DNA from: an uncultured Chloroflexia bacterium | GTDB lineage: Bacteria > Chloroflexota > Anaerolineae > JAAYZQ01 | DNA: 64,000 nt | Direction: 5' to 3' | Assembly: GCA_963783445.1 (NCBI GenBank) | Contig: CAWANP010000008.1 | Coordinates: 14,986 to 78,985 of the forward strand | Part shown: piece after piece, positions 1-8,343 of the stretch | Position numbering within the stretch: the first letter of the stretch is position 1 | Layout of the letters: each line of letters starts with the position of its first letter | Made by a program: the position numbers and the translations under genes | The notes under the pieces: generated by a model | Databases searched by the model: none | Told to the model about the DNA's origin: nothing | The model's input: only the letters and a program-made list of their open reading frames with translations

Positions 1-972
1 ATCCGCGATCCTGACTATGGCCGCAACGTCAGCTTTCACCGCTTGATGCAGGTTGGCCCCCGAGCCTTTACCGCCCGCATCGTCGAGGGTCGGGGAACAG
101 ATACGGCCTGGCGCAAGGCTTTGGCTGCCGGACAGGATCTGGAGGTAGCCGTTTGCCTGGGCGTGCCCATCCACGTTCTGCTGGCGGCGGCCATGAGCCC
201 AGCCAAAGGGGTGGACGAATTGTGCCTTGCCCATGCCCTGGCCCAGGCACCCCTGGTTCGCTGTGCAACGGTGGATCTGGAGGTGCCAGCCGAGTGCGAG
301 GTCATTCTGGAGGGACGGATCACCGGGCGTGAGGCCGACGAGGGACCGTTCATCGACCTGACCGAAACCTGGGACGTGATCCGCCATCAGCCGATCATCG
401 AGATCGATTGCATGACCCACCGGCAGTCACCCATCTATCACGCCCTGCTGCCTGGGGGGCTGGAACACAAGCTGCTGATGGGCTTGCCCCGAGAGCCCAC
501 CATCTTTCGAGCAGTGGCAGAGGTGGTCGACTGCCTGAATGTGAGCATCACACCCGGTGGGATGAGCTGGCTCCACGCCGTGGTGCAGATTTCCAAGCGC
601 AACCCCGACGACGGCTGGCACGCCATGGAGGCCGCTTTCCGGGGACATGGCTCTCTGAAGCACGTGGTCATCGTAGATGAGGACGTCAATCCCTTCGATC
701 CGGCAGCCGTCGAGTGGGCCATCGCTACGCGCTTCCAGGCAGACCAGGACCTGATGGTTCTTCAGGATCAGCCTAGCAGCAGCCTCGATCCTTCCGCCAA
801 TCAGGTACCAGGGCAGAAAGCCCGCTCGGCCAAGATGGGATTGGATGCCACCATACCTTGGGTTGACGGCGCCGGGCGTCCTAGAAGCCTGGCAGAGCGA
901 GATAGCTTCCGCAAGGTACCCTACGATGGCGTGGATCTCTCCAGGTACATTTCAGGCCCGGAGCAAGATTGA
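1..972 (+). CDS. UbiD-family prFMN-dependent decarboxylase, probable trans-anhydromevalonate 5-phosphate decarboxylase (5' end outside window)
   Basis: UbiD motifs EGPF, VIVDEDVN...VEWAIATRFQ, SSLDPS, KMGLDAT; frame open from window start; adjacent to aconitase X subunits and IPK. Confidence 0.88.
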   Translation: MRDPDYGRNVSFHRLMQVGPRAFTARIVEGRGTDTAWRKALAAGQDLEVAVCLGVPIHVLLAAAMSPAKGVDELCLAHALAQAPLVRCATVDLEVPAECEVILEGRITGREADEGPFIDLTETWDVIRHQPIIEIDCMTHRQSPIYHALLPGGLEHKLLMGLPREPTIFRAVAEVVDCLNVSITPGGMSWLHAVVQISKRNPDDGWHAMEAAFRGHGSLKHVVIVDEDVNPFDPAAVEWAIATRFQADQDLMVLQDQPSSSLDPSANQVPGQKARSAKMGLDATIPWVDGAGRPRSLAERDSFRKVPYDGVDLSRYISGPEQD

Positions 973-1019
973 CGGGAAGGCGCCCCATTCGACCATGATT
1001 TCTGTGATGAGAGATTCAC

Positions 1020-2318
1020 ATGACGAGCGATAACCCTCGCAAACATGAGACATCAAGACTACTTCTCACGAGCGAGGAACAAGCCATGTGGTCCGGTGAA
1101 GCCGGACCGGGCGTGCGAAAGGCTATGGAGATCGTGGTCGCCCTGGGCCAGATCTATGGCGCCGCTGATCTGGTACCGGCGGCCAGTGTTCAGGTATCCG
1201 GCGTGAGCTATAAGAACCTGGGCGACGCCGGCCTCGAGTTTCTGGAAGAGTGGGCGTCCCAAGGCGCCCGAGCCCGGGTGCCTGCTACCTTGAATCCAGC
1301 CGGCATGGACATGTTTGCATGGCGCAGGCTTGGATTCAGCCAGGGATTCGCCCAGCGGCAGAAGGCCGTCATCGCCGCCTACGAATCCTTGGGCATCGTA
1401 CCAACCTGCACCTGCACGCCCTACCTGGTAGGCTACAGACCCCAGTTTGGAGAGCATCTGGCCTGGGCCGAATCTTCGGCGGTGAGTTACGCCAACTCTG
1501 TCCTGGGTGCACGGACCAATCGCGAAGGGGGACCCAGTGCTCTGGCGGCAGCGATCACCGGGCGGACGGCACGTTACGGCCTTCACCTGGACGTGAACCG
1601 GACGGCGACAGCCATCGTCGACGTTCGCTGTGCCGTCACGTCAGATGCCGATCTGGGCGCCCTGGGTTACTTGGTGGGCCAACAGGTCAAGAATGGTGTC
1701 CCCTACTTTCGGAATCAGGGTATGGTAGATTGGGTAAACCTCAGGCTGGGGAACTGGGGGTTAAGGACGCTGGGAGCGGCAATGGCTGCCAGTGGCGCAG
1801 TTGCCCTGTATCACGTTGAAGGGATAACCCCAGAGGCAACGGCTGGGGGCGTGCTCACACCCGGCGCCCAGACCCTGGTCGTAGACAGCTTGGCTCCCGC
1901 CTACGCCCAACTCGACGGCCCCTCCGAGGCGGTGGATCTCGTGAGCCTGGGCTGCCCCCACGCCTCCCTGGGCGAAATTGGGGCCATTGCCGATTACCTG
2001 GAGGGGCGGCGGGTCAAGGCTGCCCTTTGGATAACCACGGCGCGAGCCACGCGAGATGCAGCCGACGAGGCCGGATTGGTAGCCCGTATCGAAGCCTCGG
2101 GCGGCCGGGTGGTACCCGACACGTGCATGGTGGTTGCTCCCGTAGCCGATCTCGGGTACCGCACACTGGCCACCAATTCGGCCAAAATGGCCTTCTACAC
2201 ACCCTCCCACAGCGGGCTCTCGGTGCGCTTTGGCACCATGGAGCAGTGTCTTGAGGCCGCCAGGACAGGCGCGTGGCCCAGCCTGCGATCTACACATCAC
2301 GAAACCCGGATCAGGTAG
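1020..2318 (+). CDS. Aconitase X catalytic (large) subunit, probable phosphomevalonate dehydratase large subunit (DUF521)
   Basis: Motifs SGVSYKN, CTCTPY, AWAESSAV, RTNREGGPSALAAA, LGCPH, DTCMVV (Fe-S cysteines); context. Confidence 0.92.
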   Translation: MTSDNPRKHETSRLLLTSEEQAMWSGEAGPGVRKAMEIVVALGQIYGAADLVPAASVQVSGVSYKNLGDAGLEFLEEWASQGARARVPATLNPAGMDMFAWRRLGFSQGFAQRQKAVIAAYESLGIVPTCTCTPYLVGYRPQFGEHLAWAESSAVSYANSVLGARTNREGGPSALAAAITGRTARYGLHLDVNRTATAIVDVRCAVTSDADLGALGYLVGQQVKNGVPYFRNQGMVDWVNLRLGNWGLRTLGAAMAASGAVALYHVEGITPEATAGGVLTPGAQTLVVDSLAPAYAQLDGPSEAVDLVSLGCPHASLGEIGAIADYLEGRRVKAALWITTARATRDAADEAGLVARIEASGGRVVPDTCMVVAPVADLGYRTLATNSAKMAFYTPSHSGLSVRFGTMEQCLEAARTGAWPSLRSTHHETRIR

Positions 2319-2319
2319 C

Positions 2320-2707
2320 ATGGAACTCACAGGACGGATCATCAAGAACGGAACCGCCAAAGGCATCGCCCTGGTAACATCAGAACCCATCGGATTCCTC
2401 GGTGGGATAGACCCGGAGACGGGTCTCGTCATTGAACCTGGGCATCCCCTGGAGCGACAGCTGTGTTGCCGGCCGGGTGCTGGTCTTTCCCACAGGCAAG
2501 GGCAGCACGGTAGGCTCGTATACCCTTTATCGCATGGCCAAGGCTGGCACAGCACCGGCTGCCATCATCAACGCCGAAAGCGAAGCAATCGTGGCTGTGG
2601 GAGCGATCATCAGCGACATTCCCATGGTAGACCAGGTGGACATCACCCAGATCCGGACCGGCGACCGGGTGTCTGTCGATGGAGATCGCGTGGAAGTAAG
2701 CCGATGA
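2320..2707 (+). CDS. Aconitase X swivel (small) subunit (DUF126), probable phosphomevalonate dehydratase small subunit; one frameshift near 2455-2462
   Basis: MELTGRII...FLGGIDPETG...GHPL in one frame, continuing VAGRVLVFPTGKGSTVGSY...IPMVD in another; KGSTVGS motif; frameshift probably a sequencing error. Confidence 0.85.
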
Positions 2708-3540
2708 TCCCAAGCAGTACAGGCCGGCTGGTATTCGTCAAGCTAGGCGGTTCGGTGATCACCGACAAGACTCAGCCCGAGAGGGATCGACCTGAAGTAA
2801 TCGGCCGCCTCGCAAACGAGGTTGCGCGCGCGCTGGCTCGCCGCCCTGACCTGCAACTGGTGTTGGGACACGGCAGTGGATCATTCGGGCACGTTGTTGC
2901 CCAGCACTATGGAACACGCCATGGGGTATGCGGTGAAGCCCAATGGCGGGGCTTTGCCGAGGTAGCATCGGTCGCATCGCTGCTGAATCGCATTGTAACT
3001 GAGGAATTCCTGGAGGTTGGCGTTCCAGTTTGGTCGCTCCAGCCATCTGCTATGGCCTGGTGCCGGGCTGGCGAACTGATATCGTTGGCTACAAGGCCCG
3101 TAGAACGCGCGCTGTCTTGTGGGTTGGTCCCTCTTTTGTACGGCGACGTGGCCCTGGACGAGGTACAGGGAGGCACGATCATCTCCACCGAGCAGATCTT
3201 TGCCTACCTGGCTCGCCAACTCCGCCCGGCCCAGATCGTACTGGTAGGAGAGGTAGATGGTGTATATGACCGGGATCCCTTGCGTGACCCATCAGCCAGC
3301 CCCATCCCAGAGATTTCGGCCTCGAACTGGGAAACGGTACGCGGCTCCCTGGGCGGCTCTCATGCCACCGACGTGACTGGCGGGATGCAGGCCAAGGTTG
3401 CAGAGATGGTGAGCTTGGTCCAAGAAATACCGGGGCTGACGGTACACCTGATCTCGGGCGAGCGTCGCGGCGCCCTGGAGACGGCCCTGCTTGAACCTGC
3501 CAGGGCTGCAGGTGGAACCATGATCCGCTGGAATGGCTAG
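2704..3540 (+). CDS. ipk: Isopentenyl phosphate kinase (amino-acid kinase family)
   Basis: KLGGSVITDK, GHGSGSFGH (IPK His signature), DVTGGM; ATG overlaps upstream stop (ATGA). Confidence 0.92.
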   Translation: MIPSSTGRLVFVKLGGSVITDKTQPERDRPEVIGRLANEVARALARRPDLQLVLGHGSGSFGHVVAQHYGTRHGVCGEAQWRGFAEVASVASLLNRIVTEEFLEVGVPVWSLQPSAMAWCRAGELISLATRPVERALSCGLVPLLYGDVALDEVQGGTIISTEQIFAYLARQLRPAQIVLVGEVDGVYDRDPLRDPSASPIPEISASNWETVRGSLGGSHATDVTGGMQAKVAEMVSLVQEIPGLTVHLISGERRGALETALLEPARAAGGTMIRWNG

Positions 3541-3568
3541 GTGGGCATCGGAAGGTAATCCAGCTAAC

Positions 3569-3597
3569 TTGCCCATAGACCCAAAAAGTGCTATGAT
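3569..3597 (+). promoter_or_regulatory. sigma70-type promoter upstream of the GHMP decarboxylase gene
   Basis: TTGCCC-17bp-TATGAT with extended -10 TG. Confidence 0.6.
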
Positions 3598-3621
3598 ATC
3601 GGCAAAGGCTGGCATACAGGA

Positions 3622-4608
3622 ATGTCGAAAGGCAAGACGACCGCGGTCGCAAACCCAAATATCGCTTTCATCAAATACTGGGGCAAGGCCAACGACGCCC
3701 TGAACCTGCCTGCGAATCCGTCACTTTCGATGAACCTGGCAGCACTGACGACAGTGACCACCGTCGAGTTTCGGTCGAGATTGTCCAGCGACATGGTGAC
3801 CATTGATGGACAGCCGGCAACGGGCCAGGCCCTGGAGCGGGTAGTCCAGCACCTTGATCGAGTCCGGACGTTGGCTGGAATCGATGAAAGTGCCCAGGTC
3901 GTCAGTCAGAATGACTTTCCGGCTGGGACAGGGTTGGCCTCATCAGCGTCCGCTTTTGCCGCCCTGTCACTGGCAGCGACGCAAGCGGCAGGGATTCGGC
4001 TGCACGAAGAAGAGCTGTCGCGCCTGGCGCGACTGGGATCTGGGTCGGCGTGCCGATCGGTTCCGGCAGGCTTTGTCCTATGGGATGGGGATCGCGATGA
4101 TACATCGTTTGCCCGTCAGGTAGCGCCCCCAGATCACTGGGACTTGTGCGATTTGGTTGCCATTGTCAGCCACCAGCACAAAGGGGTAGGCTCGCACGAC
4201 GGACACGAGATGGCGCCGACGAGTCCATTCTACGCAGCCCGGTTGAATGCCGTGCCAGGACTGCTGGCAACTGTCCTGTCAGGCATTCAGCAGCGTGATC
4301 TTGCGACAATGGGACCCGCCATTGAGGCCGATACCCTGGCCATGCATGGGGTGATGATGACCTCAGCTCCTTCGCTCTTGTACTGGGAAGCCGCGACGGT
4401 AGCCGTCCTGCAAGGGGTACGAGCTTGGCGCCAATCAGGTCTGGGCGTATTTTTCACACTGGACGCTGGCCCCAATGTGCACTGCTTCTGTGAAAGATGC
4501 GACGTCGCTGAGGTTGAGGCACGATTGCGTGGCCTGCCAGGCATCCAAGAAGTGCTGGTTAGCGGCCCGGGTGGTGGGGTGCGGCCAGTGGAATACCATT
4601 TGTTCTAG
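3622..4608 (+). CDS. mvaD: (Di)phosphomevalonate decarboxylase (GHMP family), likely mevalonate-5-phosphate decarboxylase
   Basis: NIAFIKYWGK, GLASSASAFAAL, GSGSACRS, FTLDAGPNVH motifs. Confidence 0.92.
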   Translation: MSKGKTTAVANPNIAFIKYWGKANDALNLPANPSLSMNLAALTTVTTVEFRSRLSSDMVTIDGQPATGQALERVVQHLDRVRTLAGIDESAQVVSQNDFPAGTGLASSASAFAALSLAATQAAGIRLHEEELSRLARLGSGSACRSVPAGFVLWDGDRDDTSFARQVAPPDHWDLCDLVAIVSHQHKGVGSHDGHEMAPTSPFYAARLNAVPGLLATVLSGIQQRDLATMGPAIEADTLAMHGVMMTSAPSLLYWEAATVAVLQGVRAWRQSGLGVFFTLDAGPNVHCFCERCDVAEVEARLRGLPGIQEVLVSGPGGGVRPVEYHLF

Positions 4609-4625
4609 AAGAGCAAAAGTCATAT

Positions 4626-5282
4626 TTGGAGGATCTCGAGTTGGAGTACAGCGAAAAGGTCATGGACCACTTTATGAACCCCCGCAACGTGGGGGTTATC
4701 GAGGATGCTGACGGCGTCGGCCGGACGGGCAACCCGACTTGCGGCGATCTTATGGAGATGTCAATCAAGATCAATGAAAACGTGATCACGGACATCAAGT
4801 TTCGGACCTTTGGCTGCGGGGCAGCCATCGCCACCAGCTCGATGGCCACGGAGTTGATCAAGGGCAAAACGATCGACGAAGCACTAGAGATCTCGAATCG
4901 GGCCATCGCCGAAGCGCTGGACGGGCTGCCGCCTGTCAAGATGCATTGTTCGGTTCTGGCTGCTGATGCCCTGCGCGCCACGCTGGCCGACTATTATACC
5001 CGCCAGGGTCAACTGGAAAAAGCCGCCGAGCTGACAGACGATGAAGTGGCCGAGCCCGTGGATTCGGAGGAAGCGCGCGAGCCACTGCATTGGGACGATT
5101 TTTGCAGAATGGTGCGGGCTCTGAACACCGCCTACCCGGATACAGATCCCCTGGACCTGAGCACGACCAAGCTATTCAAGATGGTCCTCAAGCTGCCCGG
5201 CTTTGACGACAGTCCGGAGGCGGCCAACGAGGAGCAGTTGGAAAAGCTGCAGATGGCCTGGCACGAGGTTCAGGCTGGTTAG
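4626..5282 (+). CDS. iscU: Fe-S cluster scaffold IscU/NifU-N fused to a C-terminal IscX(YfhJ)-like domain (alternative TTG start at 4641 after GGAGGA)
   Basis: GNPTCGD, FGCGAAIA, LPPVKMHC motifs; C-terminal LHWDD...YPDTDP...LPGFDDSPEAANEEQLEKLQMAW resembles IscX. Confidence 0.88.
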   Translation: MEDLELEYSEKVMDHFMNPRNVGVIEDADGVGRTGNPTCGDLMEMSIKINENVITDIKFRTFGCGAAIATSSMATELIKGKTIDEALEISNRAIAEALDGLPPVKMHCSVLAADALRATLADYYTRQGQLEKAAELTDDEVAEPVDSEEAREPLHWDDFCRMVRALNTAYPDTDPLDLSTTKLFKMVLKLPGFDDSPEAANEEQLEKLQMAWHEVQAG

Positions 5283-5305
5283 GGAAAGGCTTAGGGAATA
5301 GAACT

Positions 5306-6587
5306 GTGGTAACGGTTCTGTCGCTGGTAGTGGCACTGAGTGTCGTGGTATTTGTGCATGAACTGGGACACCTGCTCGCTGCCAAGCGCGCAAAGGTGGT
5401 GGTCGAGGAATTTGGCTTCGGCTATCCACCCCGCGTGTTTACCTTTTGGCATAGCGAAGGTGATATTGTCATCGGCGGGAGAAAAATCGTGATCCCCCGT
5501 GAAGTTCAAGTTGCCCAAAGGCTTGCAGGCTCGGTCTCTCGTGGTCTACCGAGACGGGAACCGACAAAAGGGCCGAGAGGTGTTGACCCACGTTGAGAAG
5601 GTTGAACCCGAGGATGCAGCCATCGAATCGGCCAGCTATGTCGAACTGCTGGATCCCGGCACACTCTACTCTCTCAATGCCATCCCCTTTGGGGGCTTTG
5701 CCCGCATGCTGGGCGAGGAGGATCCGACCTTCCCTGGCAGCCTGGCCAGCAAGAGCAAGATCACGCGGATTGTGGTACTGGCTGCCGGGGCAGGCATGAA
5801 TCTGTTGACTGGCCGTGGTCTTTTTTGCCCTGGCACTCCGTTTGGGCGCACCGGCTGTCGCGGAGCCAGAGAATGCAGTGGTGAACGCTGTAGCTCCAGG
5901 CTCGCCTGCCGAGGCTTCAGGGTTGCTGCCCGAGGGACGTGATCCTGCGCGCCGATGATCGGGAGATCTGAGAGATCACAGACCTGCAGGAGCATCTCAG
6001 AGCCCACCTGGGGGAGCCTGTGTCGCTGACGGTAAAGCGGGACGACGAGACACTAGCAGATCACGTCATACCCCGCATCACCCCGCCAGAGGGCGAGGGA
6101 CCGATGGGCATCAGCCTGACCCCACGCATGACCGTCAAGAACGTATCCGTGGCCGAAGCCCTCTGGCTGGGGATTAAACAAACAGCAGGCTACATCGGCT
6201 TCATCATCACCCTTCCCATCCAGATGTCAAGGGGTCTGATCCCAGCCGACCTGGCCCGGCCCGTGGGCCCAGTGGGAGTGGGGCGGCTGGTGGGCGATGC
6301 AGTACAGTACTCGCTCGACTAGCGGCTGGTGGTTTCCGGTGATGCAGATGATGGGTACCCTGAGCGTGGCTCTGGCAGTTACCAATCTGCTGCCGCTGCC
6401 TGCGCTGGATGGCGGGCGCATTCTCTTTGTCATTGTCGAAGGAATCCGTGGCCGCCGCATGGACCCGGCCAAAGAGGGCCTGGTACACCTTATTGGCATG
6501 TTGTTGCTGGTAGGCCTGATGCTATTCATTACCTGGCAGGATCTGATCAACCCTGTGCCCTCTTTGGACTGGGGCAGTTTCTTCTAG
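5306..6587 (+). CDS. rseP: RIP metalloprotease RseP (site-2 protease, M50 with PDZ), broken by several frameshifts
   Basis: HELGH, EFGFGYPP, AIPFGGFARM, AGAGMN, PDZ-like segment, GPVG, NLLPLPALDGGR spread over at least 4 reading-frame fragments. Confidence 0.85.
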
Positions 6588-6676
6588 CTCACAGCGTCCG
6601 GGACTGTAGCATGCATCTCACATCACAAAACGTGTCGTTCTAGTGGAGTCCAGCTCGCTGGCGACGAGGCAGTCCA

Positions 6677-7573
6677 TTGAAAAAGTGTAGCCGTTGTGGC
6701 ACCGAGGTCCAGACTGGACAACTCGTCTGTTCCCATTGTGGCAAGCCCCAGCGACGCCCCCGGAGCATTCGCTGCCGGCACTGTGGCACAGTCAGTAGCC
6801 GGGCTTTTGAGGTGTGTCCCAGTTGCGGCGAAACCCTGCGGCATGACTGGCTCCGGCCGCTGGCAATCGTAGCCGCCATCGCCATCATGATCGCGGTTGG
6901 GCTCTTGGTGATCCCCTGGTTGCAGCAGAGTCTGGAAGGCTTCCAGCCGCCATTGGCCGTGAGCACCGTTCAAGCAGTCGCCAGCGAGGTACCGGTTTTC
7001 GTCCTCGTCGAGGTGCCGACTCTCACGCCCACGCCGACACTGACAAGCAGCCCCACACCCACCAACACCCCCACGACAACGCCAACTCCCAGCTTGACAC
7101 CTACCCTGACACCGTCGGCTACCCCAACCGAAACGCCTACACCTACGCTGACCTGGACACCCACGCCCACGGTCACACGCGTGCGGCCCTCAGCGGTTCC
7201 GACAGAAACCCCGAGACCCGCGCCAACCGTCGCCCCGCCAACACCGCTCAGGCCTGAAGATGGCGCCTTGTTCAGCGGAGAAAACGCCAAGATCGAGTTG
7301 GCGTGGACCAGCGGACACACGCTGAGGCCCAATGAATGCTTCCTGGTGACGGTTCGCTGGACCGAGGGAGGGGCTCGGACAAGCACACAAGTATGCGTAC
7401 AGGCAACTTCCTGGTTCGTGGATGGGTCACTCCATCTTCGGGCTGATCAGGAGACCGATCGGGTCTACGGTTGGAGGGTACAGCTTGCCCGGGAGGAAAC
7501 GGGCGAGAACGGCCAAGAGACTTTTGCTCCTTTTAGTCCTTCAGGCGAGGAACGTTCCTTCCACTGGCAGTAG
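6677..7573 (+). CDS. Double zinc-ribbon, single-TM protein with Thr/Pro-rich stalk and C-terminal beta-rich domain
   Basis: Four CxxC pairs at N-terminus, hydrophobic helix, (TPTPT)n linker, Trp-rich C-terminus. Confidence 0.75.
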   Translation: MKKCSRCGTEVQTGQLVCSHCGKPQRRPRSIRCRHCGTVSSRAFEVCPSCGETLRHDWLRPLAIVAAIAIMIAVGLLVIPWLQQSLEGFQPPLAVSTVQAVASEVPVFVLVEVPTLTPTPTLTSSPTPTNTPTTTPTPSLTPTLTPSATPTETPTPTLTWTPTPTVTRVRPSAVPTETPRPAPTVAPPTPLRPEDGALFSGENAKIELAWTSGHTLRPNECFLVTVRWTEGGARTSTQVCVQATSWFVDGSLHLRADQETDRVYGWRVQLAREETGENGQETFAPFSPSGEERSFHWQ

Positions 7574-7602
7574 GCGCCTTCTGGCTCAAATTGCAGGGAA
7601 CA

Positions 7603-7654
7603 AAACAGCAGCCCCGCTTTCAGATGATTTCTGCCTGATACGGGGCTGCTGTTT
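7603..7654. terminator. Probable bidirectional intrinsic terminator between convergent genes
   Basis: AAACAGCAGCCCCG...CGGGGCTGCTGTTT inverted repeat with T/A tails. Confidence 0.65.
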
Positions 7655-7695
7655 GTGTTTGTACTGGAAAGCGCTACGGCATCATTGGGCCCGGG

Positions 7696-8343
7696 TTATA
7701 TCTCGCGAACGTCAATGATCTCGGCCCCTTCAATCTGGGACAGGCTGGAAAGCAATACCTCGCGATCCACATTCCTGACCTTGACAACCAGGCCAGCTTT
7801 GATGGGGTCTTGGGCCAGAAAAGCTCCGCAGGCGACAATATTGCCGCCTTGCCCGGCCACAGCCTGGGCAACCAGGGCCAGCTCACCTTCCCGATTTGGT
7901 ACCTCCAGGGTAATGCGCAAGCCTTTCTGCCGGGCGGCAAACAATTCCATGAAAGTCCGGAATACATCACTTTCGGTGACAATACCTACCAGTCTTCCGT
8001 CCCGCAGCACAGGTAGACAGCCGATCTTGTGATCCAGCATCAAGTGGGCTGCTTCCTCGATGGGAGTATCCTCCGAGGTGGTAATCACGGTTTTCACCAT
8101 GACTTCCTTCACCTTGACTTTGGTCAAGAGGGAATGAATCTCCCACACACTCAGCAAAGTTGCCTCTGATGGCCCGGCCTTTAGCAGGTCATCTTCGGTG
8201 ACAAGGCCCACCATCTTGCCCGTCTTGTCCACTACCGGGAGATGCCGGATACTCTGCTGCTGCATATATTGGTGCGCGCCCGATAGAGATTCACCTGCTG
8301 AGACGGTCAGAGGATGTTTGATCATTCGGTCCTTAACTAACAT
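7696..8343 (-). CDS. CBS-pair + ACT domain protein (AcuB-like)
   Basis: Two CBS repeats (IRHLPVV, IGCLPVL...GIVTESD) followed by ACT-like VPNREGELA. Confidence 0.88.
   Translation of the reverse strand: MLVKDRMIKHPLTVSAGESLSGAHQYMQQQSIRHLPVVDKTGKMVGLVTEDDLLKAGPSEATLLSVWEIHSLLTKVKVKEVMVKTVITTSEDTPIEEAAHLMLDHKIGCLPVLRDGRLVGIVTESDVFRTFMELFAARQKGLRITLEVPNREGELALVAQAVAGQGGNIVACGAFLAQDPIKAGLVVKVRNVDREVLLSSLSQIEGAEIIDVREI

What the first reader, a model, noticed from the sequence alone, without database searches (positions are those of the whole stretch)
4626..5282. IscU scaffold fused to an IscX (YfhJ)-like domain
Seen: a complete IscU (three Cys, LPPVK chaperone motif) continues through an acidic linker into about 65 aa (from about 5085): LHWDDF...ALNTAYPDTDPLDL...LPGFDDSPEAANEEQLEKLQMAW. 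This closely follows the pattern of E. coli IscX. Established: IscX is normally a free-standing acidic iron-binding modulator of IscS, mostly in proteobacterial isc operons. Inference: this is a natural scaffold-regulator fusion outside Proteobacteria, supporting a direct IscU-IscX partnership. No iscS is adjacent.
Basis: partly seen in the sequence, partly recalled or inferred. Interest (0 to 1): 0.72.

Follow-up and report, generated by a model that had tools for sequence, protein, structure and literature searches.

The report
Iron-sulfur scaffold fused to IscX
In two families of uncultured Anaerolineae bacteria the iron-sulfur cluster scaffold protein ends in a conserved, fused copy of the small helper protein IscX, which likely works as a built-in second grip on the sulfur-donating enzyme, a role still untested.

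Summary
The fusion is real. One 213-residue gene (start TTG 4641, not 4626) joins a complete U-type scaffold to a true IscX domain (Pfam and NCBIfam cut-offs passed; predicted fold 1.0 A from E. coli IscX). It occurs in 20 of 22 genomes of the same Anaerolineae family and 4 of 4 of a second family, arose once, keeps a fixed linker length and is under purifying selection (dN/dS 0.09). The scaffold is MIS-like, not ISC: no HscA/HscB, ISC ferredoxin or CyaY was found. The likely desulfurase lies on another contig, in the rrf2-nifS-mnmA cluster that holds iscU in related families. The acidic face that E. coli IscX uses to bind IscS is charge-reversed here (two Arg, 101 and 100 of 101). And most Anaerolineae IscX are free genes before nuoB, in families with no IscU-type scaffold. 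I found no paper on the fusion in ten searches and no earlier scan note on it; the iscX-nuoB link was noted before on other DNA. Best reading: a tethered second contact on the desulfurase (untested). New variant of a known kind.

The parts
4628..4632 (+). Ribosome-binding site GGAGG, 8 bases before the start codon
   Evidence: Sequence; GGAGG in 18 and GGAG/GAGG in 4 of 22 related loci
4641..5282 (+). Whole fusion gene, 213 aa, TTG start, TAG stop
   Evidence: the record of this protein and most homologues are 213 aa
4641..5006 (+). U-type scaffold domain (residues 1-122), MIS-like IscU/NifU-N with Tyr3, Cys34, Asp36, Cys59, LPPVK 96-100, His102, Cys103
   Evidence: PF01592 171 bits; TIGR03419 206.5 over cut-off 187.9; TIGR01999 154.3 under 192.4; Cys34, Asp36, Cys59, His102 in 105 of 105 rows, Cys103 in 104; model closest to A. 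fulgidus IscU 4EB5, rmsd 1.6 A
5007..5084 (+). Acidic linker (residues 123-148), fixed length, predicted partly helical
   Evidence: Cys103-to-Trp151 distance 48 residues in 101 of 101 same-type proteins, mean charge -7.2; pLDDT about 78-89; dN/dS 0.18; no conserved internal start codon
5085..5279 (+). IscX (YfhJ) domain (residues 149-213); helix-1 acidic residues replaced by Arg156 and Arg159; Asp153, Asp190, Glu197, Glu201 kept
   Evidence: PF04384, TIGR03412 over cut-off; predicted fold TM 0.92, rmsd 1.0 A to 1UJ8; residue counts; dN/dS 0.093
3622..4608 (+). Upstream neighbour: mevalonate-pathway decarboxylase (context, not part of the fusion)
   Evidence: TIGR01240 242 bits over cut-off; this gene or isopentenyl phosphate kinase lies upstream in 22 of 22 same-type loci
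5306..6587 (+). Downstream neighbour: rseP-like M50 protease, split by assembly indels in this window (context)
   Evidence: PF02163 in three of four pieces; downstream in 22 of 22 same-type loci; indels against relatives' contigs

Best explanation
This gene encodes a U-type iron-sulfur scaffold with an IscX domain fused to its end, and the IscX domain likely serves as a tethered second contact on the partner cysteine desulfurase. Step 1 (shown by sequence): the scaffold keeps every cluster-binding residue. Step 2 (inferred from gene order): its sulfur donor is the NifS-type enzyme on contig C2, whose gene cluster holds iscU in related families but not here. Step 3 (inferred from E. coli, where IscX and IscU bind IscS side by side and IscX shuts out TusA): when the scaffold docks, the fixed-length linker would place the IscX domain in the pocket beside the active site at one-to-one ratio, turning a weak contact (about 10 micromolar in E. 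coli) into a standing one. That would favour cluster assembly over the other user of the same desulfurase, the tRNA thiolase MnmA encoded in its cluster, and could hold iron near the scaffold through the acidic residues that remain. Step 4 (inferred): the contact face has been rewired; two Arg replace the E. coli glutamates, and the desulfurase has Glu where E. coli has Arg112.
For: Fusion in 20 of 22 same-family genomes and 4 of 4 of family f3; one origin for both halves (IscX domains 100/99; scaffolds 98/90); dN/dS 0.093 on the IscX domain; linker length fixed in 101 of 101. It is the only scaffold of this type and the only IscX in the genome. C2 NifS passes TIGR03402 (550.4 over 530.75) and sits in rrf2-nifS-(gene)-arsA-like-mnmA-udk; related families have nifS, iscU and mnmA together; an orthologue was found in 23 of 26 f1 and f3 genomes with no iscU in the 1.5 kb flanks of those 23 loci. 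All 40 free-IscX genomes tested also keep a type I desulfurase, in line with the report that IscX depends on IscS (PMC5801593, passage). E. coli: IscX and IscU bind IscS together, TusA is excluded (PMC2854127, passages); Kd 8-14 micromolar (PMC5801593, results read).
Against: The E. coli IscS-binding residues of IscX (PMC5346568, Fig. 6 legend) sum to -4 in E. coli but +1.3 in 23 same-type fused domains; Glu10 is Arg in 101 of 101, Glu13 is Arg in 100 of 101, Glu64 is never acidic. The matching basic patch is eroded in the C2 NifS: R112E, R223 deleted, R225P, R340L, with R220, R237 and K at 116 kept. Glu at 112 also occurs in NifS of families without IscX, so it is not shown to be a compensating change. 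CyaY, the competitor that IscX displaces in E. coli, was not found (genome 90% complete). Free Anaerolineae IscX lies before nuoB in 39 of 40 loci, which points to clients rather than to the desulfurase.
Confidence: 0.45

Rival explanations
1. Client-targeting adaptor. In Anaerolineae IscX works on the receiving side, helping load clusters into complex I subunits (NuoB, NuoI); the fusion hitches that adaptor to the scaffold so that clusters pass directly to such clients or to the iron-sulfur dehydratase of the mevalonate operon it sits in.
For: Free iscX lies directly before nuoB in 39 of 40 loci, in families where no IscU-type scaffold was found. This genome has nuoB-nuoCD-nuoI without iscX before it, and no HscA/HscB to release clusters was found. 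An aconitase-X pair lies upstream in the window. The IscS-binding face is reversed.
Against: The fused domains do not group with the nuoB-linked IscX in the best tree, although one clade is not rejected (p-AU 0.188). In family f3 the fusion has unrelated neighbours. Residues typical of the nuoB-linked form (Tyr9, Trp29, Glu60) are not kept in the fused form.
Confidence: 0.22
2. Intramolecular cap. The IscX domain folds back on its own scaffold, stabilising it or shielding the new cluster and feeding it iron; this is the first reader's direct IscU-IscX partnership made permanent.
For: Fixed linker length and conserved linker residues (Gly123, Ala128, Pro139 in 101 of 101); the two-domain model has no low-confidence stretch (pLDDT 87.5, pTM 0.71); new invariant residues (Phe154, Arg156) suggest a new packing face; iron raises IscX-IscU affinity in E. 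coli (PMC8593673, passage).
Against: Both domains and the linker are net acidic (-5.8, -7.2, -5.1). IscU does not change IscX affinity for IscS in E. coli (PMC5801593).
Confidence: 0.2
3. Passenger. Two neighbouring genes fused once by loss of a stop codon; the domain does whatever free IscX did, and the tether itself has no role.
For: Anaerolineae scaffolds take on C-terminal add-ons often (DUF59, zinc ribbons). IscX is dispensable in E. coli (PMC5801593, passage), and many Anaerolineae families with the scaffold have no IscX.
Against: No split form among 21 f1 loci and 4 f3 genomes; linker length fixed and under selection; long branch with invariant new residues after fusion.
Confidence: 0.12
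4. Assembly artefact: a missed stop or frameshift joins two genes.
For: The window has indel errors in the next gene.
Against: Hundreds of independent records show the same fusion; no indel listed in the gene and a gap-free contig across the junction.
Confidence: 0.01

Closest known systems
E. coli IscX (YfhJ; PDB 1UJ8, 2BZT) in iscRSUA-hscBA-fdx-iscX
   Same: Family models passed, same predicted fold (TM 0.92, rmsd 1.0 A), 38% identity, core Trp, Pro and FDDDP-type motif kept.
   Different: Fused to the scaffold; no isc operon; no CyaY, HscA/HscB or ISC ferredoxin found; IscS-binding acidic face reversed in the f1 form.
MIS (minimal iron-sulfur) MisS-MisU systems; A. fulgidus IscS-IscU (PDB 4EB5)
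   Same: Single U-type scaffold, 67% identical to the 4EB5 chain, with a type I desulfurase and no chaperones.
   Different: MIS is described as having no additional components (PMC13066941, passage); here an accessory domain is attached and the two genes are on different contigs. The genome also has a full SUF locus.
U-type scaffold fused to DUF59 (SufT 'S5' architecture, PMC4982691) and three-domain NifU
   Same: A U-type scaffold with an iron-sulfur accessory domain on its C-terminus; the DUF59 form also occurs in other Anaerolineae.
   Different: The add-on is IscX; the IscX-fused and DUF59-fused scaffolds are separate clades.
Free iscX heading nuoB-nuoCD-nuoI in other Anaerolineae
   Same: Same protein family, same class, no isc operon.
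   Different: Free gene, in families where no IscU-type scaffold was found; separate branch in the best tree.

Membership tests
IscX/YfhJ | Family profile over the curated cut-off | tested here: met
   PF04384 61.9 bits over 25; TIGR03412 58.6 over 40.4
IscX/YfhJ | Three-helix IscX fold | tested here: met
   Model pLDDT 91.6; top matches 1UJ8 and 2BZT, TM 0.92 and 0.91, next best 0.51
IscX/YfhJ | Acidic face (Glu10, Glu13, Asp17, Asp63, Glu64) used for IscS and iron binding in E. coli | tested here: not met
   Arg at 10 in 101 of 101, at 13 in 100 of 101; 64 never acidic; only 63 kept. Sum +1.3 against -4 in E. coli, -2.9 in 54 mostly proteobacterial loci picked by query-like patterns, -1.9 in 24 free Anaerolineae, -1.2 in 6 f3 rows
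IscX/YfhJ | Free-standing gene at the end of an isc operon | tested here: not met
   Fused, between a mevalonate decarboxylase and rseP
IscX/YfhJ | Binds Fe(II) and the cysteine desulfurase | not testable with these tools
   Needs binding assays
U-type scaffold (IscU/NifU-N) | Three Cys, Asp, His, Tyr3 and LPP(V/I)K | tested here: met
   Cys34, Asp36, Cys59, His102, Lys100 in 105 of 105; Cys103 in 104; Tyr3 in all 74 rows that reach it
ISC system | IscU and IscS of the ISC type | tested here: not met
   TIGR01999 154.3 under 192.4; TIGR02006 412.1 under 643.2 for the C2 desulfurase
ISC system | HscA, HscB, ISC ferredoxin | tested here: not met
   PF07743 no match; TIGR01991 best 623.7 under 708.55; TIGR02007 best 28.4 under 132.1; genome 90% complete
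MIS system | Type I desulfurase plus single U-type scaffold without chaperones | tested here: met
   TIGR03419 206.5 over 187.9; TIGR03402 550.4 over 530.75
MIS system | No additional components (PMC13066941) | tested here: not met
   An IscX domain is fused to the scaffold
MIS system | Placement in the MisS/MisU clades of the defining phylogeny | not tested
   Garcia et al. 2022 seen only as cited in PMC13066941; its reference sets were not available
SufU | SufU profile and suf operon context | tested here: not met
   TIGR01994 81.7 under 92.5; a separate SufU (98.0) lies near sufRCBDS on C19

The most novel reading that the evidence does not exclude
In Anaerolineae IscX is not the IscS modulator known from E. 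coli but a client-side cluster-loading factor: free beside the complex I iron-sulfur subunits in lineages without a U-type scaffold, and fused with a rewired, Arg-bearing face to the scaffold in lineages that have one, where it replaces the HscA/HscB release step. The fusion would then reveal the conserved job of IscX.
Probability: 0.2. Interest if true: 0.75.

Novelty: new variant of a known kind. Interest (0 to 1): 0.5.

Why it matters
The role of IscX is still open (iron donor, regulator or adaptor; PMC13066941, PMC8593673, passages). A natural, strongly selected one-to-one fusion to the scaffold, in a genome where no CyaY or chaperones were found, is a clean test object: full-length, domain-deleted and split forms can be compared in standard cluster-assembly assays. 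It also shows a MIS-like system carrying an accessory part, and a lineage in which the canonical binding face of IscX has changed sign.

Tried and rejected
Complex prediction of the IscX domain (142-213) with two NifS chains and the scaffold domain: no answer, score 0.00 in both runs, controls not folded; no evidence either way. ESM Atlas: no result for the window's protein or for one homologue. Internal start that would also give a free IscX: no start-type codon in more than 9 of 22 loci at any linker position. Promoter/terminator scan of 3400-7800: 2 promoter-like sites against 1.2 expected, 6 terminator-like against 3.3; none frames the gene. RNA runs X5 and X15 held only short pieces of other organisms' scaffolds, so expression is not shown; the run list gave no holder above 0.21 of the words. 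Other IscX fusions: a profile search found 1543 clusters, of which only the best 150 were listed; P0040 is this fusion, and none of 11 other long hits that I scanned had a NifU_N domain; a second word search over longer proteins listed only this family. So IscU-IscX fusions outside Anaerolineae are not excluded. An Arg-rich stretch in f1 NifS at E. coli positions 90-95 looked like a matching surface, but similar basic stretches occur in NifS of other families and not in f3; kept only as a weak lead. Origin of the fused domain (from nuoB-linked IscX or from outside): unresolved on 68 columns. Functional link to the mevalonate operon: not supported by f3, where neighbours differ. Papers not held: Kim 2014, Kim 2015, one recalled paper on the Chloroflexota mevalonate pathway.

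Full report
Observation. Window 4626-5282 (+) is one open frame. The N-part scores 171 bits on PF01592 and the C-part 61.9 bits on PF04384 (cut-off 25) and 58.6 on TIGR03412 (cut-off 40.4). The last 70 residues hit only the two E. coli IscX entries in the PDB. A model of the domain (pLDDT 91.6) matches 1UJ8 at TM 0.92, rmsd 1.0 A; the best unrelated match in rank order is 0.51. The start is very likely TTG 4641 behind GGAGG; the equivalent codon is TTG in 17, GTG in 3 and ATG in 2 of 22 related loci. The protein is then 213 aa: scaffold 1-122, linker 123-148, IscX 149-213.

Not an artefact. The window has indel errors: rseP, the next gene, is in four frames. Contigs of near relatives list 12 indels at 5302-6230 (2 more rows not shown) and none inside the fusion gene, and one contig spans 4790-5136 without a gap. 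A search with residues 130-218 gave 265 hits among 292 candidates; 119 of the 120 listed, the window's own protein included, carry both domains.

Range. Named relatives are Anaerolineae MAGs. Among 22 same-family (f1) genomes 20 have an IscX match and all 21 such loci are fused to the scaffold; the two misses are 81% and 75% complete. In 401 genomes of the class, 108 have IscX: this genome, 16 of 16 f1, 4 of 4 f3 (all four fused) and 87 others. In a phylum sample of 301, all 21 matches were in this class. The fused IscX domains of f1 and f3 form one clade (100/99; 72 rows after removing duplicates and two thirds of the outgroup rows), and so do their scaffolds (98/90): one fusion event. In f1 the gene lies between mevalonate-pathway genes and rseP in 22 of 22 loci; in f3 the neighbours vary, so the neighbours are probably positional.

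Selection and anatomy. Over 23 f1 genes dN/dS is 0.053 for the scaffold, 0.18 for the linker and 0.093 for the IscX domain (synonymous sites near saturation, so rough). The distance Cys103 to Trp151 is 48 residues in 101 of 101 f1-type proteins and 50-51 in 4 f3-type ones. All cluster-binding residues are kept. The two-domain model has mean pLDDT 87.5, pTM 0.71 and no segment under 50; its closest solved chain is A. fulgidus IscU in 4EB5.

Which machinery. The scaffold passes TIGR03419 and fails the ISC IscU and SufU models. It is the only one of four PF01592 matches in the genome that passes TIGR03419; a SufU lies near sufRCBDS on C19. The best type I desulfurase, on C2, passes TIGR03402 and fails TIGR02006; it sits behind an Rrf2 regulator and before an ArsA-like ATPase, mnmA and udk. 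Other Anaerolineae families have iscU inside this cluster (for example L157, L165, L186, L190, L199). Orthologues were found in 23 of 26 f1 and f3 genomes, none with iscU within 1.5 kb. CyaY and HscB gave no match; HscA and ISC ferredoxin stayed under their cut-offs; one A-type carrier is present (genome 90% complete). The system works like MIS, which a 2026 review describes as a desulfurase and scaffold without additional components (PMC13066941, passages). Formal MIS membership by phylogeny was not tested.

Results against a simple reading. First, the binding face. E. coli IscX uses Leu3, Lys4, Glu10, Ile11, Glu13, Ala14, Asp17, Leu58, Trp61, Leu62, Asp63, Glu64 for IscS (PMC5346568, Fig. 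6 legend). Their summed charge is -4 in E. coli, -2.9 in 54 mostly proteobacterial loci (picked by query-like patterns, so biased), -1.9 in 24 free Anaerolineae IscX, -1.2 in 6 f3 rows and +1.3 in 23 f1 rows. In 101 f1-type proteins position 10 is Arg in all, 13 in 100, and 64 is never acidic, while Asp7, Asp44, Glu51 and Glu55 are acidic in all. The reversal is f1-specific, so it came after the fusion. On the desulfurase, the residues needed for IscX binding in E. coli (R116, R220, R223, R225, R237, R340; R112 partly; PMC2854127, Table 3 and passages) read K, R, deleted, P, R, L and E in the C2 enzyme, but similar states occur in families without IscX. Second, free IscX. In the same 401 genomes no match to TIGR03419 at E 1e-42 was found in f4 (0 of 17), f10 (0 of 17), f13 (0 of 2), f14 (0 of 12), f20 (0 of 3) or f29 (0 of 15), and no f36 or f48 genome is among the 123 with a match; these families hold 86 of the 87 other IscX genomes. 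Their iscX lies directly before nuoB in 39 of the 40 loci that I read, and all 40 genomes tested keep a type I desulfurase, under the NifS cut-off, next to mnmA in 16 of 20 loci read. This genome's nuoB-nuoCD-nuoI has no iscX before it. Whether the fused domain derives from the nuoB-linked one is open: the best tree separates them, the AU test does not reject one clade (p 0.188, 44 rows).

Mechanism. Shown: an intact scaffold, a folded-by-prediction IscX domain under selection, a fixed tether, a candidate desulfurase. [quoted passage not shown] Inferred: tethering would make the domain a standing one-to-one second contact on the desulfurase, favouring cluster assembly over MnmA and perhaps holding iron through the remaining acids and the acidic linker, with a rewired interface in f1 (0.45). 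Rivals: client-targeting adaptor (0.22), intramolecular cap (0.20), passenger (0.12), artefact (0.01).

Prior description. Ten full-text searches were run. IscX + IscU + fusion: 44 papers, 25 listed, none on such a fusion by title or abstract start. IscX + Anaerolineae 0; IscX + nuoB + Chloroflexi 0; IscX + complex I + Chloroflexota 0; 'IscU-IscX' 3 papers, in the passages read all about E. coli complexes; IscX + MisS + MisU 2 listed; IscX + Fe-S + phylogenomic + fused 6 listed, one read in passages without mention; one search was uninformative; two searches served other questions. I did not see Pastore 2006, Kim 2014 or Garcia 2022 or their supplements; the last could list these sequences, and automated annotations already call some of them 'FeS assembly protein IscX' or 'NifU-like'. 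A U-type scaffold fused to DUF59 is published (PMC4982691, passage) and occurs in other Anaerolineae. Earlier scan notes: none on this fusion among those shown; two on iscX before nuoB, which I had found before seeing them.

Verdict. A real, conserved, apparently undescribed domain fusion of two known iron-sulfur proteins, in a MIS-like setting, with a rewired IscX face. New variant of a known kind; interest 0.5.

Noticed in passing
L132-L135, L137-L156, L257-L271: Free iscX lies directly before nuoB-nuoCD-nuoI in 39 of 40 Anaerolineae loci, often after an aldehyde dehydrogenase or divergent from a SufR-like regulator and an A-type carrier, in families where no IscU-type scaffold was found.
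   Followed up: yes
window 43-4608: UbiD-like decarboxylase, aconitase-X pair, isopentenyl phosphate kinase and a mevalonate decarboxylase in one run: genes of both the archaeal-type and the decarboxylase-type mevalonate routes (recalled names); several relatives lack the decarboxylase at this place.
   Followed up: partly
window 5306-6587 and about 2230-2713: rseP is split into four frames by indels that relatives' contigs do not share; the small aconitase-X subunit also appears frameshifted (not checked against contigs). The assembly carries indel errors.
   Followed up: partly
L193-L198: Anaerolineae IscU-type scaffolds with a C-terminal DUF59 (PF01883) domain next to a divergent nifS; one long-branched clade. 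The architecture is published (PMC4982691, S5).
   Followed up: partly
L184, L189, L191, L192, L205, L206: IscU-type scaffolds with a C-terminal Cys-rich double zinc ribbon.
   Followed up: partly
L131 (G028:C1:1-8400) and L199: One genome (family f7) has a free, more proteobacterial-like IscX after nifS, a mevalonate decarboxylase and a SufR-like gene, before 4Fe-4S proteins, plus a separate rrf2-nifS-iscU-mnmA cluster; a possible picture of the state before fusion.
   Followed up: partly
L127:5989-7017 (-): An ArsA/GET3-like ATPase sits between nifS and mnmA in this genome and near nifS in many relatives, in one case between nifS and iscU; role unexplained.
   Followed up: no
G000:C8:174844-176175 and C11:8877-10103: Two near-identical type I desulfurase paralogues with a SAGAACH active-site loop; not the likely scaffold partner.
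   Followed up: no
P0193: A 225-aa protein with three IscX-like stretches in tandem.
   Followed up: no
G010:C12 and C133: One f1 genome holds two copies of the fusion in the same gene order; duplication or bin mixture.
   Followed up: no
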